DNA of 64,000 bases, taken from a virus. Taxonomy: Duplodnaviria; Heunggongvirae; Uroviricota; Caudoviricetes. Shown here piece by piece: positions 17,236 to 58,776 of this stretch. Both the position numbers and the translations under genes were made by a program. The stretch's first letter is position 1; each line of letters starts with the position of its first letter. Where the stretch lies: the IMG/VR virus record IMGVR_UViG_3300009500_000011, positions 104,585-168,584 of that record. One strand, written 5' to 3'. The notes beneath the pieces are model-generated. The model did no database searches, was not told where the DNA came from, and saw only the letters and a program-made list of their open reading frames with translations.

Positions 17236-17371
17236 TTTTGAGTTGCGCTAGAATAAAGTTACTTCGTCTGTAAAACGAGGAATCCGGGTTCGAGTCCCGG
17301 TCGGAATCTAACGATTTCGGTACTTTAATCGGTAAAATCCTAAACACTTTGTTCGCTACCTTCGCTCAAAA
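17236..17371 (+). ncRNA. Y-RNA-like / YrlA-like element with tRNA-mimic module, embedded in the tRNA array
   Basis: TTTTGAG/CTCAAAA terminal helix. TTGCG...AAAGT pairs with ACTTT-gtt-CGC, followed by TACCTTCG, the same 3' box as element B. TTACTTCGT box. Anticodon-like arm CTTCGT-CTGTAAA-ACGAGG. Perfect T arm CCGGG-TTCGAGT-CCCGG. Confidence 0.55.
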
Positions 17372-45346: not shown

Positions 45347-45362
45347 TATAAATTTTATAATA

Positions 45363-45456
45363 TTTAAATTGCGTTAATTACAGATACTTCTTGTATATTG
45401 GTTCGAGTCCATTAAGTGTAGTCGGTACACAACTGTAGTTGTTCCATTCGTTTAAA
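45363..45456 (+). ncRNA. Y-RNA-like element C with tRNA-like T arm
   Basis: ATTTAAA/TTTAAAT terminal helix, TTGCG...TTACAG pairing with CTGTAG, ATACTTCTT box, TGG-TTCGAGT-CCA T-arm mimic, GTGTA-gtcgg-TACAC hairpin. Confidence 0.5.
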
Positions 45457-45464
45457 TTTTATTT

Positions 45465-45498
45465 AATCCTTGGGAATATATTTCTCAAGGATTTTTTT
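45465..45498 (+). terminator. intrinsic terminator closing the Y-RNA-like array
   Basis: AATCCTTGGGA...TCTCAAGGATT followed by TTTTT. Confidence 0.6.
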
Positions 45499-45519
45499 GT
45501 TGTCATAAAGGAAAAAAGA

Positions 45520-47205
45520 ATGAAATACAATACTAAAACAGTAAATGCTGGTCCAGGAACAAAAATGATAAATCTTGCAGGCGGAGAAGCTTTTAAAGTT
45601 GATAATCGTACTGCATTATATTTAACTTCTGCAACTTCTTTAGGTGGCGGTCAAGGAAATAAATATTATGTTTCTGCAAATCAAGAATACAAAAATATTC
45701 TTGAACTAATTGAAAAGGTTTCCGCTCAAGACCCAGAATTTATTTTCCAATTGGCTGCATATTGTCGTCAAGATTTATACCTTCGTAGTATTCCAACGGT
45801 ATTATTTATCGAAGGTATTCGTGCAATGCATAAGCAAAAAAAGGCCAATGCACCATATCCAGTAGATGCATCTAAGTATGCAAATGCTATTTTTGGTCGT
45901 GCTGATGAAATTGTTGAAGCAGTTGCATATTGGCTTGGAGTTGAAGGCCATCACAAATTGCCTTCCCCTCTTCGTAAATCTTTGACCATTGCTTTAAATT
46001 CATTTGATGAATACCGCTTGCTTAAATATAATCAAGAAGATAAGCAAGTTACATTTAAAGATATTGTTCGTCTTGTGCATCCAGAACCAAAAACTGATGT
46101 GCAAAGTGCAATTTTCAAATACTTCATCAAGGATGAAATCAGTCCAGAATTAATGCCAAAGGCAACTGCCCGCAAGGCTTTGCTTTCACGTACTCAATTT
46201 GATGAAGAAGCACAACGCTTGATGAGAGATTCATCTGCTACTTGGGAAACTGTAATTGCTAAATTCGGTTCGACTAAAGAAATTTGGGAAGCAGTTATTC
46301 CAAATATGGGATACATGGCTTTATTACGTAATCTTAATAATTTTCTTAAAAAAGAAGTAGATTTAGATTTAGTAATTCCTCGCCTTGTGAATCCGCAAGA
46401 AATTCGTAAAAGCAAGCAATTGCCTTTCCGTTTTTACACAGCAATGAAACAACTTGGTGTAGAAGATAACAATAAGAATTCTACGATGACATATTATGGA
46501 TATTCCGATTCAGTAAAAACAGCATTTGAAAAATGGCGTAATGTAAATTCTAGCGATGGAATTTCTCGTTTACGTAATGCTCTTGGTGTTGCTATGAATA
46601 TTGCAGTAGAAAATGTTCCTCACCTTTCAGGTCGTACCGTTGTTGCGGCAGACCTTTCTGGTTCTATGAGTCAACCTCTTAATAACAAATCAAATGTAAC
46701 TTATCGTGAAATCGCTTGTATTATGGCTGGTATTGCTGGTTCAATAGCACCAGATAATGTAATTTGTGGATTTGGTTGTTCATTTGCTGTTGCTAAAAAA
46801 GGCAAAGATATTCTTGAAACTGCAAATAATATTGATAAATTAAATGTTGGAATGTCAACGGATGCATGGCGTATTCTTGATTACTTGCTTACAAACAAAA
46901 TTTTTGTAGATAGAGTCATGTATTTTACAGATACACAATGTTATAATTCATATGGGGGCGCAAATTTAAACGAACTTTGGAAAAAATACAAAGTTCTTTG
47001 CCAATCAACTGGTAAAAAAGTTCCTGTTCTTTATGAAGTAAATCTTGCAGGTGGTAATACATCTAGTTTTAATTCTGAACAAAGAGTTGCTACCATTGGT
47101 GGATGGTCTGAAAGAATTTTTGATTTAATTACTACTTATGAAACTGACCCTCGTCAAGCAATAAGTAAAATTAAAGAAAAATATTCAGATTTAGTATCTG
47201 TTTAA
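45520..47205 (+). CDS. rsr: Ro60-related protein (TROVE domain + vWA), Rsr-like
   Basis: Start trimmed to MKYNTKT behind AAAGGAAAAAAG. TROVE-like helical repeat region (FIFQLAAYCRQDLYLRSIP). C-terminal MIDAS AADLSGSMS. Confidence 0.85.
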   Translation: MKYNTKTVNAGPGTKMINLAGGEAFKVDNRTALYLTSATSLGGGQGNKYYVSANQEYKNILELIEKVSAQDPEFIFQLAAYCRQDLYLRSIPTVLFIEGIRAMHKQKKANAPYPVDASKYANAIFGRADEIVEAVAYWLGVEGHHKLPSPLRKSLTIALNSFDEYRLLKYNQEDKQVTFKDIVRLVHPEPKTDVQSAIFKYFIKDEISPELMPKATARKALLSRTQFDEEAQRLMRDSSATWETVIAKFGSTKEIWEAVIPNMGYMALLRNLNNFLKKEVDLDLVIPRLVNPQEIRKSKQLPFRFYTAMKQLGVEDNNKNSTMTYYGYSDSVKTAFEKWRNVNSSDGISRLRNALGVAMNIAVENVPHLSGRTVVAADLSGSMSQPLNNKSNVTYREIACIMAGIAGSIAPDNVICGFGCSFAVAKKGKDILETANNIDKLNVGMSTDAWRILDYLLTNKIFVDRVMYFTDTQCYNSYGGANLNELWKKYKVLCQSTGKKVPVLYEVNLAGGNTSSFNSEQRVATIGGWSERIFDLITTYETDPRQAISKIKEKYSDLVSV

Positions 47206-50046: not shown

Positions 50047-50124
50047 GGTGTTTGTAGTGTAGTGGTTTTAGCACGTTAGCCTGTGAAGCTGAAAGGGCCG
50101 TTTCGAATACGGTCAAACACCCCA
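50047..50124 (+). tRNA. tRNA-His(GTG) with genome-encoded G-1
   Basis: G-1 followed by acceptor GTGTTTG/CAAACAC with C73 opposite G-1. Arm TTAGC-CTGTGAA-GCTGA. T arm GCCGT-TTCGAAT-ACGGT, CCA. Promoter at 50007-50035. Confidence 0.85.
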
Positions 50125-50858: not shown

Positions 50859-51162
50859 GAGTTGTTTGCATAAAATCAAGACAATCTTTACACATTAAAA
50901 TTAATTTTGGATTTTGAAAATTTTCTTCATCAATAATTTCAACAAAATTATTTTTTTCTGTCTTGCAAAGCAAACATAAATGTGGTATTCCATCATTAAC
51001 TGCCAAAAAATATAAAGAATTGGAAAATTTTTCAACAATAATAAATGGCCTCATTTGATGAACAATTTCTCCAATATTTAAAAGATATTTTTCCATTAAA
51101 TCGAATTCTTCATCGGTACTAAACCCAGCAGATGTTCCATCGGGCTTGAATTTGAATAGCAT
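50800..51162 (-). CDS. hypothetical protein (reverse strand)
   Basis: 120-aa minus-strand ORF with CLLC...CKDC motifs. No competing + strand ORF across most of its length. Confidence 0.45.
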   Translation of the reverse strand: MLFKFKPDGTSAGFSTDEEFDLMEKYLLNIGEIVHQMRPFIIVEKFSNSLYFLAVNDGIPHLCLLCKTEKNNFVEIIDEENFQNPKLILMCKDCLDFMQTTLTKTSKDIHDEHSIRLLGS

Positions 51163-51186
51163 ATATTGTATAATCTCCTTATATAT

Positions 51187-51263
51187 GGCCGTATACCAGC
51201 CTAATTTCCTAAATTAGTAACTGTAGATGGACAAGGTAGGTTCGAATCCTATTGCGGCCTCCA
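51187..51263 (+). tRNA. atypical tRNA-like gene, CCT anticodon-like loop, no canonical D arm
   Basis: Acceptor GGCCGTA/TGCGGCC and T arm GTAGG-TTCGAAT-CCTAT, then T73 and CCA, are good. The only anticodon-type hairpin, CTAAT-TTCCTAA-ATTAG, starts 5 nt after position 9 and leaves an 18-nt 3' spacer. Confidence 0.45.
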
Positions 51264-51286
51264 TATAATTATAAGAAGATAATAAT

Positions 51287-51637
51287 ATGCTTGAAGATTT
51301 TAGTATTCGTGTATATCCAAATCAAAGCCTTACTCATGAAGAAGTGGTATTTTTTCTAAAAAATCGAATATTATGTTCTGATAGGATAACAAAAAAATTT
51401 ATTGCTTTAAAGAAAAAAACTATTCTAAATGGACTTTTTAGAAATTGTATAACTAGAGGTTCAAAGTGGAAACAAGCTTTTCAAACTAAAGAAGAAGCTA
51501 ATACTTTTGTTGAAAAACGATTTGGTAAAGATAAAGCATATAGTTATAAATGTGAACTTCATGGTTATCACATATCTTGCATAGATGAAAGTACGTATCG
51601 AAGAGGATATTTGAAAAGAGAAGAAGAGACGAGATAA
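51287..51637 (+). CDS. hypothetical protein, paralog of 62970..63194
   Basis: Shared motif W/K-x-F-Q-T-x3-A-x2-[FW]-x2-K-x-F...Y.C..HG[YW]H. Confidence 0.4.
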   Translation: MLEDFSIRVYPNQSLTHEEVVFFLKNRILCSDRITKKFIALKKKTILNGLFRNCITRGSKWKQAFQTKEEANTFVEKRFGKDKAYSYKCELHGYHISCIDESTYRRGYLKREEETR

Positions 51638-52602: not shown

Positions 52603-53054
52603 GGGATATAGCAGTTTTGACTGGAAAACCAAGGGCTATAAGACAAGCAGTAGAGCATTAGGCTACTATAAAAAATGCAAACAAACAATCGCAGACTTTT
52701 CTGTAACTGGGTTCAACGACTTCATCGCTCGCGAAGCGGTCGCTGCCTAAAACCTCTCTAGGCTCGTAGAGTAATACGGGCTAAGGGAAACATAGTTTCC
52801 CTACCTTATCCGTGGGGCCACACGGAAGGTTCGATTCACGTTTCAGAGGTTACTACTCTGTAGCACCATAAACGAGAATATTACCCTTATGAATAAGGGC
52901 GACCGGAGGGCTAGGTCGTAAATGGCGCTCATTGTAGGCTGAAATTTCCTACAAAACCAAGTCCTGGTTGAGGGAATAAATATCAGGAAGCTTGTATAAT
53001 CAAATAGTTCGAAGATTCTAGGACTCGGGGGGCGGCTCCCCGAATATTCCACCA
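52603..53054 (+). ncRNA. ssrA: tmRNA (SsrA) candidate, one-piece
   Basis: 5' GGGATAT pairs with 3' ATATTCC-ACCA and gives G3-U70. H-type pseudoknot AGTAG-a-GCATT-agg-CTACT-ataaaa-AATGC at 52649-52678. Then a 12-nt A-rich spacer ending ATC and resume codon GCA at 52691. The tag frame reads ADFSVTGFNDFIAREAVAA, with stop TAA at 52748-52750 in hairpin GCCTA/TAGGC. GGAC precedes the T stem TCGGG/CCCGA. Own promoter and terminator. Confidence 0.75.
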
Positions 53055-53063
53055 AATAATAAT

Positions 53064-58130: not shown

Positions 58131-58213
58131 CGGCGGGTTCCCGTAGCGGCGAACGGTCTGCTTTTACATGGCAGCATACCACATCGTGGGTTCGAGTCCC
58201 ACCCTGCCGACCA
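58131..58213 (+). tRNA. tRNA-Val(TAC) with 11-nt variable loop
   Basis: Acceptor CGGCGGG/CCTGCCG, arm CTGCT-TTTACAT-GGCAG, variable CATACCACATC, T arm GTGGG-TTCGAGT-CCCAC, CCA. Promoter at 58092-58120. Confidence 0.7.
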
Positions 58214-58685: not shown

Positions 58686-58776
58686 CTCGGTGTGGTGTAA
58701 CTGGATAGCACAAAACGCTACGAACGTTTAGGGAGCCGCAAGGCCATTGGGGGTTCGAATCCCTCCATCGAGGCCA
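58686..58776 (+). tRNA. tRNA-Arg(ACG) on a type II (long variable arm) scaffold
   Basis: Acceptor CTCGGTG/CATCGAG, perfect arm AAACG-CTACGAA-CGTTT, 19-nt variable region with GCC-GCAA-GGC hairpin, T arm GGGGG-TTCGAAT-CCCTC, CCA. 91 nt. Confidence 0.65.

What the first reader, a model, noticed from the sequence alone, without database searches (positions are those of the whole stretch)
51187..51263. tRNA-like gene with good acceptor/T arms and a CCU anticodon hairpin but no D arm
The acceptor (GGCCGTA/TGCGGCC), T arm and CCA are canonical. The 40 nt between them fold as a 5-nt linker, then a 7-bp hairpin presenting TTCCTAA (anticodon CCU, Arg) as a 5-bp stem with a 7-nt loop, then an 18-nt tail with a 3-bp mini-hairpin. 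D-armless tRNAs are essentially unknown outside metazoan mitochondria. This may instead be a tRNA mimic, a decoy or a degenerate gene. It sits at the switch between a minus-strand gene and the + strand array.
Basis: seen in the sequence. Interest (0 to 1): 0.5.

Follow-up and report, generated by a model that had tools for sequence, protein, structure and literature searches.

The report
Phage arginine tRNA with rewired D arm
This is very probably a working arginine tRNA (anticodon CCU) whose D arm is built from two separated strands rather than a local hairpin, and it belongs to a large family of phage tRNAs that standard gene finders miss and that I could not find described in the literature.

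Summary
Window 51187-51263 (+) has a 7-bp acceptor stem, a canonical T arm, an encoded CCA and a 5-bp/7-nt CCU anticodon arm, but no local D hairpin. ARAGORN misses it and the Rfam tRNA model scores it 27.9 bits (threshold 29).

It is not degenerate.
- It occupies the slot where three related phages carry a canonical tRNA-Arg(CCU).
- It is 100% identical in a sister phage that is only about 92% identical around it.
- It belongs to a family of more than 200 distinct sequences from phage contigs, cultured phages (Pseudomonas PAK_P2, Agrobacterium Atu_ph04, about 80 Streptomyces phage records) and bacterial tRNA arrays.

In this family, nt 11-13 pair across the anticodon arm with nt 35-37. This 3-bp helix shows 18 covarying variants. 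It is followed by a D-loop-like U-A-R..G-G-N motif.

The nucleotide after GG tracks the anticodon: A goes with Arg anticodons and U with Ile anticodons. A family model built without this sequence scores it 61.7 bits, against 34 bits or less for ordinary tRNAs.

Best reading: a functional AGG-decoding tRNA with a topologically rewired core. Expression, charging and decoding were not tested. No description was found in the searchable literature.

The parts
51146..51174 (+). Promoter-like site TTGAAT-17 nt-TATAAT, ending 12 nt before the tRNA 5' end
   Evidence: 10 of 12 consensus matches, the best site in 50900-51500. Both hexamers are kept in L003. This is a consensus match in AT-rich DNA and only weak evidence.
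51187..51193 (+). Acceptor stem, 5' strand (nt 1-7, GGCCGUA)
   Evidence: Pairs 7 of 7 with 51253-51259. All 7 acceptor pairs covary in the family.
51194..51196 (+). U8, A9 and N10 connector
   Evidence: U8 and A9 are invariant in 190 of 190 family members, and no search pattern constrained them.
51197..51199 (+). CAG (nt 11-13): 5' strand of the long-range helix, placed like the D-stem 3' strand (positions 23-25) directly before the anticodon stem
   Evidence: The single-sequence MFE fold pairs it with 51221-51223. RNAalifold predicts the helix on 54 sequences. Covariation is shown.
51200..51200 (+). C14, the single nucleotide between the long-range helix and the anticodon stem (position-26-like)
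   Evidence: Alignments A6 and A7. The family has C, A, U or G here.
51201..51217 (+). Anticodon arm: stem CUAAU/AUUAG and loop UUCCUAA. The anticodon CCU lies at 51208-51210 and reads AGG.
   Evidence: The anticodon-stem pairs covary in the family.
51218..51220 (+). UAA linker between the anticodon stem and the 3' strand of the long-range helix
   Evidence: This linker is 3-11 nt in the family (one case of 16 nt); 3-5 nt and 8 nt are the common classes.
51221..51223 (+). CUG (nt 35-37): 3' strand of the long-range helix, D-stem 5'-strand-like (positions 10-12)
   Evidence: The family has 18 distinct paired variants: CGG/CCG, CUC/GAG, CCC/GGG, CGC/GCG, CAG/CUG, CAC/GUG and others.
51224..51231 (+). 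UAGAUGGA: D-loop-like segment (U13-like, A14-like, G15-like, .., G18 G19-like, A20-like)
   Evidence: U-A and G-G are invariant in alignment A6, which was collected without constraining them. The nucleotide after GG is A in 153 of 154 members with Arg anticodons and U in all 57 with Ile anticodons.
51232..51235 (+). CAAG connector. A48 is conserved. G49 is position-48-like, the partner of G40.
   Evidence: The penultimate A is invariant in A6. The 15-like/48-like pair reads A-U 26, G-G 4 and G-C 1 in the unbiased set A6, and AU 48, GC 2, other 4 in A7.
51236..51252 (+). T arm: GUAGG-UUCGAAU-CCUAU
51253..51263 (+). Acceptor 3' strand UGCGGCC, discriminator U and encoded CCA
   Evidence: Of the 32 ARAGORN-called tRNAs in the window, 29 also encode CCA. 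U73 occurs in 29 other Arg-type family members.

Best explanation
Window 51187-51263 encodes a functional but non-cloverleaf tRNA-Arg(CCU). It belongs to a widespread family of phage and tRNA-array tRNAs, called here "rewired-D" tRNAs.

Shown:
- The acceptor stem, T arm and anticodon arm are canonical.
- There is no D hairpin. Instead, three nucleotides just 5' of the anticodon stem (nt 11-13) pair with three nucleotides 3' of the anticodon arm (nt 35-37).
- This helix encloses the anticodon hairpin and sits where the D stem stacks on the anticodon stem in a normal tRNA.
- It is followed immediately by a D-loop-like string: invariant U-A, then R, then G-G, then an isotype-specific nucleotide.
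- A short connector follows, whose last base covaries with the R in the manner of a 15-48 pair.

Inferred:
- The RNA folds into an L shape using the usual tertiary contacts: U8-A14, 15-48, and G18G19 with the T loop. Only the backbone connectivity differs, as if the block 10-21 had moved into the variable loop. Length stays at 77 nt.
- It is transcribed from the promoter-like site 12 nt upstream and trimmed by RNase P.
- It is charged by the host ArgRS through the A20-like base and C35/U36.
- It reads AGG codons for the phage.

In this phage lineage it has replaced the canonical tRNA-Arg(CCU) that relatives carry at the same position.
For: 1. Positional orthology. The window's tRNA order is His(GUG)-Gly(UCC)-[candidate]-Ser(GCU)-Val(UAC)-Arg(ACG). 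The same order is found in L006 and L010, and its first three genes (His, Gly, Arg-CCU) in L007, with a canonical tRNA-Arg(CCU) in the candidate's place. The upstream ORF (156 aa) is homologous to the ORF directly upstream of Arg(CCU) in L006.

2. Purifying selection. L003 is about 92% identical to the window overall. An identical block at 51183-51265 coincides with the gene, just as for the other tRNAs, while the flanks differ at 2 of 24 and 5 of 23 positions. Only 4.7% of 77-nt windows are free of differences.

3. Family. Together they yielded 212-224 distinct sequences with this architecture.

4. Structure. RNAalifold predicts the long-range helix on its own. In alignment A6, which was collected without reference to the helix, the three pairs are standard in 31/31, 31/31 and 23/31 sequences, with 3-4 pair types each. 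In 224 sequences chosen without the helix, 184 have 3 of 3 pairs and 40 have 2 of 3 at the anchored register. None has 3 of 3 in any shifted register. The covariation score is 0.93 against 0.22 for shuffles.

5. Decoder signatures. Anticodons are only Arg (UCU, CCU, ACG, UCG, CCG) or Ile (UAU, GAU, CAU), plus one CUU. The 20-like base is A with Arg in 153 of 154 members and U with Ile in 57 of 57. The discriminator is A in all 51 Ile members. In tRNA-rich loci only 7 of 90 such tRNAs have a canonical neighbour with the same anticodon. Some phages carry several Arg isoacceptors in this form.

6. Membership. The leave-out model R2 scores the candidate 61.7 bits and canonical tRNAs 34 bits or less. 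CCA is encoded, as in 29 of 32 window tRNAs.
Against: - There are no expression, aminoacylation or decoding data for this gene or for any family member.
- AGG is rare in this phage: 22 of 505 Arg codons in 39 ORFs. Demand for this tRNA is therefore low.
- The conservation test rests on only two lineages, with an empirical p of about 0.05.
- The single-sequence fold is no more stable than shuffled sequences, z=-1.2.
- The candidate's clade has G-G rather than A-U at the 15/48-like position, and U73 rather than the A or G usual for Arg.
- The L-shaped tertiary fold is inferred from conserved motifs and was not modelled.
- Family sampling was driven by search patterns. Scans 2 to 4 fixed GTAA, GG and the T loop, so frequencies are biased and no census is possible.
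Confidence: 0.7

Rival explanations
1. A conserved tRNA mimic that does not decode. It would be a structured RNA derived from tRNA-Arg that serves as a decoy or inhibitor for host tRNA-directed nucleases or other tRNA-binding factors, or as a regulator. It would keep acceptor, T and anticodon features only for recognition.
For: The core is non-canonical and scores below the Rfam threshold. AGG is rare in the phage. The neighbourhood is rich in RNA repair and surveillance genes: Ro60/TROVE, an RNA ligase, a metallophosphatase and a tmRNA-like gene. This context fits conflict over tRNAs.
Against: A decoy does not need a full set of isoacceptors. It does not need an identity nucleotide that switches with the anticodon (A with Arg, U with Ile), nor A73 in all Ile members. 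It would not be expected to fill otherwise empty anticodon slots in arrays. It also replaces the canonical tRNA-Arg(CCU) at the same locus.
Confidence: 0.15
2. The family is functional, but this particular copy is an inactive or decaying relic in a phage that hardly uses AGG.
For: AGG makes up only 4% of Arg codons. The candidate departs from the family majority at the 15/48-like pair (G-G) and has U73. Its Rfam score is the lowest among the members that scored; other members were not reported at all.
Against: All four helices are intact. It scores 61.7 bits against the leave-out model, within the family range of 48-88 bits. There are zero differences from L003 across exactly the gene. G-G and U73 are shared with other members (L029, L036, L103; 29 Arg members have U73), so they are clade traits and not lesions.
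Confidence: 0.08
3. A degenerate pseudogene of tRNA-Arg(CCU) that lost its D arm by deletion and gained junk sequence in the variable loop.
For: ARAGORN misses it and Rfam scores it below threshold. Relatives have a canonical gene at this position.
Against: More than 200 independent sequences from unrelated phages and bacteria share the same "defects". They show covariation in a helix formed by the supposed junk and have invariant U8, A9, U-A and G-G. The gene is perfectly conserved against a 92% identity background.
Confidence: 0.03
4. An ordinary cloverleaf tRNA read in the wrong register or carrying an intron.
For: None beyond the canonical acceptor and T arms.
Against: The Rfam model's best alignment deletes the D arm. 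ARAGORN with relaxed thresholds and with intron search finds nothing. ARAGORN misses 211 of 212 family members. No local complement to nt 10-13 exists before the anticodon arm.
Confidence: 0.01

Closest known systems
Canonical bacterial and phage tRNA-Arg (class I tRNA, Rfam RF00005), for example the tRNA-Arg(CCU) of relatives L006, L007 and L010
   Same: It has a 7-bp acceptor stem, a 5-bp/7-nt anticodon arm with U33 and A37, a GGUUCGAAUCC T arm and an encoded CCA. Total length is 77 nt. The D-loop-like string ..GGA.. has A at the position of the Arg identity base A20. It sits in the same genomic slot.
   Different: There is no D hairpin. The strand that pairs like D-stem 10-12 and the D loop lie 3' of the anticodon arm. 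The junction is three-way rather than four-way. The Rfam score is 27.9, below the threshold of 29.
Metazoan mitochondrial D-arm-lacking tRNAs, such as mt-tRNA-Ser(AGY) and Ascaris mt-tRNA-Ser(UCU) (review PMC7609411)
   Same: There is no D hairpin, the acceptor is joined to the anticodon arm by a short connector, and the connector nucleotides extend the anticodon helix.
   Different: The mitochondrial forms are reduced and flexible, have degenerate T and D-loop elements, and work with specialised organellar machinery. This family keeps a canonical T loop, an invariant G-G, U8, an A14-like base and a covarying 15/48-like pair. Its length is normal and it occurs in phages and bacteria.
Circularly permuted tRNA genes of Cyanidioschyzon merolae (from my own knowledge; not checked here)
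   Same: The order of tRNA segments along the DNA differs from the canonical order.
   Different: There the permutation is undone by circularisation and processing, which gives a normal mature tRNA. Here the block is internal and cannot be restored by processing, so the mature RNA itself would be rewired.
Allo-tRNAs with 8/4 or 9/3 acceptor/T branches, from metagenomes and phages (PMC5389517)
   Same: They are non-canonical tRNA architectures found by sequence mining in bacteria and their phages, and standard annotation partly misses them.
   Different: Allo-tRNAs keep a four-arm cloverleaf with a D hairpin and a long variable arm, and they have Ser identity. This family has a standard 7/5 branch, lacks the D hairpin, and is Arg or Ile.
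tRNA-like domain of tmRNA
   Same: It has an acceptor stem and a T arm, with a D-loop analogue that is not closed by a local D stem.
   Different: tmRNA has no anticodon arm, needs SmpB and is about 350 nt long. Rfam's tmRNA model does not match the candidate.

Membership tests
Canonical tRNA (Rfam RF00005 / cloverleaf) | 7-bp acceptor stem, discriminator base and 3' CCA | tested here: met
   GGCCGUA/UGCGGCC, then U, then CCA.
Canonical tRNA (Rfam RF00005 / cloverleaf) | Local D hairpin (3-4 bp stem, 7-11 nt loop) between positions 9 and 26 | tested here: not met
   The Rfam alignment replaces 15 D-arm positions with 4 nt. ARAGORN finds no cloverleaf at any threshold tried.
Canonical tRNA (Rfam RF00005 / cloverleaf) | 5-bp anticodon stem and 7-nt loop with U33 and a purine at 37 | tested here: met
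   CUAAU-UUCCUAA-AUUAG.
Canonical tRNA (Rfam RF00005 / cloverleaf) | T arm with GUUCRANYC | tested here: met
   GUAGG-UUCGAAU-CCUAU.
Canonical tRNA (Rfam RF00005 / cloverleaf) | Score at or above Rfam's gathering threshold (29 bits) | tested here: not met
   27.9 bits. It is absent from the gathering-threshold scan of the window.
Rewired-D tRNA family (defined here; models R1 and R2) | Match to a covariance model built without the candidate | tested here: met
   R2 scores it 61.7 bits, E about 1e-14. The best canonical tRNA in the window scores 34.1 bits. Family members score 48-88 bits.
Rewired-D tRNA family (defined here; models R1 and R2) | 3-bp helix between the 3 nt preceding position 26-like and the 3 nt preceding the invariant U-A | tested here: met
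   CAG (51197-51199) pairs with CUG (51221-51223).
Rewired-D tRNA family (defined here; models R1 and R2) | Invariant U8 and A9, and a U-A-R-(N)-G-G-N string directly after the helix | tested here: met
   UA at 51194-51195 and UAGAUGGA at 51224-51231.
Rewired-D tRNA family (defined here; models R1 and R2) | The nucleotide after G-G matches the anticodon class (A with Arg, U with Ile) | tested here: met
   A45 with anticodon CCU. In the family, A goes with Arg in 153 of 154 members.
tRNA-Arg identity set (E. coli-type: A20, C35, U/G36, A/G73; from the identity review PMC9976931 and my own knowledge) | C35 and U36 or G36 | tested here: met
   Anticodon C34 C35 U36.
tRNA-Arg identity set (E. coli-type: A20, C35, U/G36, A/G73; from the identity review PMC9976931 and my own knowledge) | A20 in the D loop | tested here: inconclusive
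   An A follows G-G in a D-loop-like string and correlates with Arg anticodons across the family. Whether ArgRS sees it as A20 is a structural question not testable here.
tRNA-Arg identity set (E. coli-type: A20, C35, U/G36, A/G73; from the identity review PMC9976931 and my own knowledge) | Discriminator A73 or G73 (a minor element) | tested here: not met
   The candidate has U73. Among Arg-type members the counts are G 52, A 51, U 29 and C 6.
Mitochondrial D-arm-lacking tRNA | No D hairpin, with the connector extending the anticodon helix | tested here: met
Mitochondrial D-arm-lacking tRNA | Reduced or degenerate T loop and loss of the D-loop/T-loop contacts; organellar origin | tested here: not met
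   The T loop is canonical and G-G is invariant. The host DNA is a phage about 275 kb long.
Functional (aminoacylated, decoding) tRNA | Transcribed, processed, charged and used on the ribosome | not testable with these tools
   Only indirect evidence exists: a promoter-like site, conservation, identity correlations and slot filling.

The most novel reading that the evidence does not exclude
Rewired-D tRNAs would be a translationally active, non-cloverleaf class of tRNA that has spread through phages and mobile tRNA arrays because its altered backbone topology gives an advantage in conflict with the host. It keeps the surfaces read by ArgRS, IleRS, EF-Tu and the ribosome: the acceptor/T arm, the anticodon, the 20-like base and the elbow. 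It changes the core connectivity around positions 8-26 and 44-48. This could let it escape host tRNA-directed nucleases, or make it independent of host core-modifying enzymes. It would then be both a new natural solution to the tRNA L shape and a counter-defence device.
Probability: 0.25. Interest if true: 0.95.

Novelty: new variant of a known kind. Interest (0 to 1): 0.85.

Why it matters
[quoted passage not shown] Nine full-text searches and a 2020 review of non-canonical tRNAs turned up no description of this form. If these RNAs are charged and decode, several things follow.

- The cloverleaf is not the only wiring that natural bacterial-type translation accepts.
- Phage tRNA inventories are systematically undercounted for Arg and Ile. 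ARAGORN misses 211 of 212 members. Annotated phage records leave the gene blank, and one labels it tRNA-Phe.
- Analyses of codon usage against tRNA content for AGA, AGG and AUA in phages would need revisiting.
- The Arg/Ile pair, which differs at the 20-like base and position 35, would be a natural experiment in identity switching.
- The scaffold could serve tRNA engineering and the study of tRNA-targeting immunity.

Cultured carriers make all of this directly testable: Pseudomonas phage PAK_P2, Agrobacterium phage Atu_ph04, and Streptomyces phages of the Samisti12 and Mildred21 group.

Tried and rejected
- ARAGORN with relaxed score thresholds, intron mode and mitochondrial mode found no cloverleaf. 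The mitochondrial mode gave only a spurious 56-nt \"TV-loop\" fold that ignores the real acceptor and T arms.
- BLAST of the 3-kb neighbourhood against GenBank phages hit only the tRNA-Gly gene.
- An exact search for the 3' half in IMG/VR found one unrelated normal tRNA(CAU) that shares the acceptor and T arm (L001). I rejected it as homology evidence because the query forced the match.
- Neighbour-protein searches in IMG/VR with single proteins found nothing. The 156-aa ORF found only its own cluster.
- Loci L005, L008/L017, L019 and L020 carry peptidase homologues but not the syntenic tRNA slot.
Neither is conserved in relatives, whereas the long-range helix is.
- An \"Arg only\" family was my first conclusion. 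It was rejected after I saw that my pattern had fixed GGA. A scan with GGB recovered Ile-type members.
- I looked for a Y RNA upstream of the Ro60 gene and Rfam found none.
- A search of E. coli genomes, intended to find a member annotated by NCBI's PGAP pipeline, gave no match.
- Literature searches for D-armless or non-canonical phage tRNAs found nothing relevant (papers read).

Full report
**1. The observation**

The 77 nt at 51187-51263 (+) read GGCCGUA-UACCAGC-CUAAU-UUCCUAA-AUUAG-UAACUGUAGAUGGACAAG-GUAGG-UUCGAAU-CCUAU-UGCGGCC-U-CCA.
- The acceptor stem (7 bp), T arm (5 bp, UUCGAAU loop), encoded CCA and anticodon arm (5 bp, 7-nt loop, U33, CCU, A37) are all present.
- ARAGORN tRNAs in the window but not this one. 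Relaxed, intron and mitochondrial modes give no credible cloverleaf.
- At gathering thresholds Rfam finds 29 tRNAs and not this one.
- Searched locally, the Rfam tRNA model aligns the sequence end to end at 27.9 bits (threshold 29, E=4.7e-4). It deletes the D arm and inserts 15 nt in the variable region.

**2. Setting**

The window is AT-rich (about 32% GC) and comes from a large phage. A near-identical contig is 274,834 bp long. Besides the dense tRNA complement it encodes:
- ribonucleotide reductase;
- a T4-type RNA ligase;
- a Ro60/TROVE protein;
- a metallophosphatase;
- a papain-like peptidase.

A tmRNA-like element lies 1.3 kb downstream of the candidate.

**3. Positional orthology**

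Homologues of the neighbouring peptidase led to related contigs.
- In L006 and L010 the tRNA order is His(GUG)-Gly(UCC)-Arg(CCU)-Ser(GCU)-Val(UAC). The stretch of L007 held here shows His, Gly and Arg(CCU) in that order. The Arg(CCU) gene is a normal cloverleaf with A20 and A73.
- The window has the same order, with the candidate in the Arg(CCU) slot.
- The 156-aa ORF upstream of the candidate is homologous to the ORF directly upstream of Arg(CCU) in L006.
- The candidate is therefore the positional counterpart of tRNA-Arg(CCU).

**4. Conservation**

- L002 and L018 are identical to the window in this region.
- L003 and L004 represent a sister lineage that is about 92% identical over 12 kb.
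- Against L003, a block free of differences spans 51183-51265, essentially the gene. The same pattern is seen for tRNA-Gly, Val and Pro.
- The flanking intergenic stretches differ at 2 of 24 and 5 of 23 positions. Only 4.7% of 77-nt windows in the region have no difference.
- This supports selection on the whole RNA, including the odd connectors, but it rests on two lineages only.

**5. The family**

- An IMG/VR scan asked only for a UUCCUAA loop placed 23-29 nt before a GGTTCRANTCC T loop. It returned 120 stretches, which is the cap. About 40 matches (31 distinct sequences once the window's own copies and one doubtful hit are set aside) had exactly the candidate's layout.
- Their alignment (A6) showed invariant A9 and a nearly invariant U8, an invariant U-A-(R)..G-G-A string, and a conserved A two bases before the T stem.
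- The three nucleotides before the anticodon stem pair with the three nucleotides before the U-A. The pairs are standard in 31/31, 31/31 and 23/31 sequences, with CG/UA/GC, GC/AU/UA/CG and GC/CG/UA/AU variants.
- The single-sequence MFE fold of the candidate had already drawn this helix, CAG/CUG.
- RNAalifold on a broader 54-sequence alignment predicts the same four helices without being told.
- In 224 distinct sequences selected without reference to this helix, 184 have 3 of 3 pairs and 40 have 2 of 3 at the anchored register. None has 3 of 3 at any shifted register. Eighteen helix variants occur.
- On a model-made alignment of 100 members, 96% of cells are paired and the covariation score is 0.93 against 0.22 for shuffles. 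That alignment was fitted to the structure, so it leans towards it.

**6. Reading the architecture**

- The strand that is followed by the D-loop-like string (nt 35-38, CUGU, then A-G-A-U-G-G-A) corresponds to D-stem positions 10-13 plus loop positions 14-20.
- The strand just before the anticodon stem (nt 10-13, CCAG, then C14) corresponds to positions 22-25 plus 26.
- The base after U-A (15-like) covaries with the base immediately 5' of the T stem (48-like). In the unbiased set this pair reads A-U 26, G-G 4 (the candidate's clade) and G-C 1. In A7 it reads AU 48, GC 2 and other 4.
- U8, the A14-like base and G-G are invariant.
- My inference is that the usual tertiary contacts, and hence the L shape, are kept while three backbone junctions are re-routed.

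**7. Isotypes**

- A scan that did not fix the anticodon but did fix GGA recovered about 110 more members, all with Arg anticodons: UCU, CCU, ACG, UCG, CCG and GCG.
- Because that pattern fixed the A after GG, I repeated it with GGB. This recovered members with U at that position and with the anticodons UAU, GAU and CAU.
- Over 212 members, A goes with Arg in 153 of 154 and U goes with Ile in 57 of 57. One member has CUU.
- The CCU scan did not constrain this base, and all 31 of its members have A.
- All 51 Ile-type members have A73. Arg-type members have G, A, U or C, so the candidate's U73 is not unusual in the family.
- Arg and Ile members share the same core strings, for example UAUCCCC...GAAAGGGUAAYUGG[A/U]. 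UCU and UAU differ only at position 35. This suggests a common origin followed by an identity switch (my inference).

**8. Signs of use as decoders**

- Some phages carry several Arg isoacceptors in this form. L078 has CCU, UCU and ACG, and L037 has UCU, CCU and CCG.
- In loci with at least 8 canonical tRNAs, only 7 of 90 rewired tRNAs have a canonical neighbour with the same anticodon. The caveat is that these loci are partial genomes.
- In Bradyrhizobium sp. C9 the rewired Arg(ACG) sits in an 18-tRNA array next to Ro60 and HNH genes. The array's canonical Arg genes are CCU, UCU and CCG.
- The candidate has a TTGAAT-17-TATAAT site ending 12 nt upstream (weak evidence in AT-rich DNA).

**9. 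Membership of the candidate**

- Model R1, whose seed included the candidate, scores it 65.1 bits. It is the only family-level match in the window.
- Model R2 was built from 100 members, excluding the window, its near copies and its closest relatives L029 and L036. It scores the candidate 61.7 bits (E about 1e-14). The best canonical tRNA scores 34.1 bits.
- A sequence not used in either model, from Streptomyces phage Samisti12, scores 74.1 bits against R1 and is an Ile(GAU) member.

**10. Visibility to annotation**

- ARAGORN misses 211 of 212 members.
- The Rfam tRNA model gives 31-39 bits to some members and does not report others, such as the three in L037.
- Among GenBank phages, 23 records match an Arg-type query. 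Of these, 21 have no annotated feature at that place. The two Mildred21 records label it tRNA-Phe(gaa), although its loop CUUCGAA reads UCG.
- An Ile-type query matches 80 records, 77 of them Streptomyces phages plus crAss-like phages. All 30 listed have no annotated feature there. In Samisti12 the gene lies in an unannotated gap.
- PAK_P2 and Atu_ph04 carry unannotated UCU members.

**11. Literature**

- Nine full-text searches found no description of such tRNAs.
- I read a 2020 review of non-canonical tRNAs, which never mentions phages or viruses. I also read a 2023 survey of viral structured RNAs, which mentions only unspecified tRNA-like candidates, and a 2021 paper on bacterial tRNA arrays. 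None describes this form.
- A 2024 abstract states that all known bacterial tRNAs are cloverleaves (PMC11551756, seen).
- I cannot exclude a description outside the searchable library.

**12. Verdict**

- The finding is real. It is best explained as a functional tRNA-Arg(CCU) of a widespread and, as far as I could find, undescribed structural class.
- The comparative evidence for a conserved, structured RNA with anticodons matched to an identity base is strong.
- Transcription, charging, decoding and the 3D fold are inferred.
- Points against function in this particular phage are the rarity of AGG (22 of 505 Arg codons) and the thin two-lineage conservation test.
- The mimic or decoy reading remains possible. 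The pseudogene and mis-register readings are effectively excluded.

Noticed in passing
window 52603-53054 (+): A tmRNA-like element scores 45.7 bits against Rfam RF00023 (threshold 47, E=6e-15) and is not called by ARAGORN. Blocks at 52635-53059 are 100% identical to L003. A second T-loop-like motif lies inside it at 52829.
   Followed up: partly
window 45349-47205 (+): A Ro60/TROVE gene lies at 45439-47205. A T-loop-like GGTTCGAGTCC sits at 45401 just upstream, and a strong terminator-like hairpin lies near 45470-45500, inside the mechanically listed ORF. This could be a Y-RNA-like partner and a later true start codon, but Rfam finds no Y RNA.
   Followed up: partly
window 23092-23174, 25104-25188, 58131-58213, 58686-58776: tRNAs of isotypes that normally have short variable loops carry 11-20-nt variable regions or extra arms: Thr-UGU, Lys-CUU, Val-UAC and Arg-ACG, at 83-91 nt. 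In relative L010 the Val and Arg counterparts have normal length.
   Followed up: partly
window 50048-50124: tRNA-His is only 76.6% identical to its counterpart in L003, whereas the other tRNAs in the compared region are 99-100% identical. This suggests gene replacement.
   Followed up: no
window 18948-19021 and 17242-17308: ARAGORN reports a tRNA with an 8-nt anticodon loop and a four-base anticodon (atcg), which Rfam scores at 35 bits. It also reports a 67-nt Tyr(GUA) tRNA without CCA that Rfam does not report. These could be a frameshift-type or a degenerate tRNA.
   Followed up: no
L070, L101 and L138 (IMG/VR contigs); also L121, L127, L084: These are tRNAs with a normal D arm, a long class-II-style variable arm and a CCU anticodon, for example GCCCCCGTGAGCGGAGATGGACATCGCAACAGTTTCCTAAACTGTCTATGCCGAAAGGCATCGCAGG.... 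They may be tRNAs of Ser or Leu type that read AGG.
   Followed up: no
L251 1495-1570 (Streptomyces phage Mildred21, NC_042008.1 91367-91442): The record annotates this gene as tRNA-Phe(gaa). The sequence is a rewired-D tRNA whose loop CUUCGAA gives the anticodon UCG (Arg).
   Followed up: yes
L272 (Bradyrhizobium sp. C9), L289, L323, L254, L279: Bacterial genome contigs carry arrays of 13-25 tRNA genes within 8 kb. L272 also has Ro60/TROVE and HNH genes. Each array holds one rewired-D tRNA, and the gene content resembles this phage window.
   Followed up: partly
L401 176-404 (-): A group I intron (Rfam 96 bits) lies within a phage tRNA cluster that also holds two rewired-D Ile tRNAs.
   Followed up: no
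L019 13329-13400: A relative carrying the same peptidase gene has a tRNA with anticodon CUA, which ARAGORN calls "Pyl". It may be an amber suppressor and could point to stop-codon recoding in that phage.
   Followed up: no
L489 160-681 (Streptomyces phage Samisti12): A gene annotated as nucleotidyl transferase ends 13 nt before the unannotated rewired-D tRNA-Ile(GAU).
   Followed up: no
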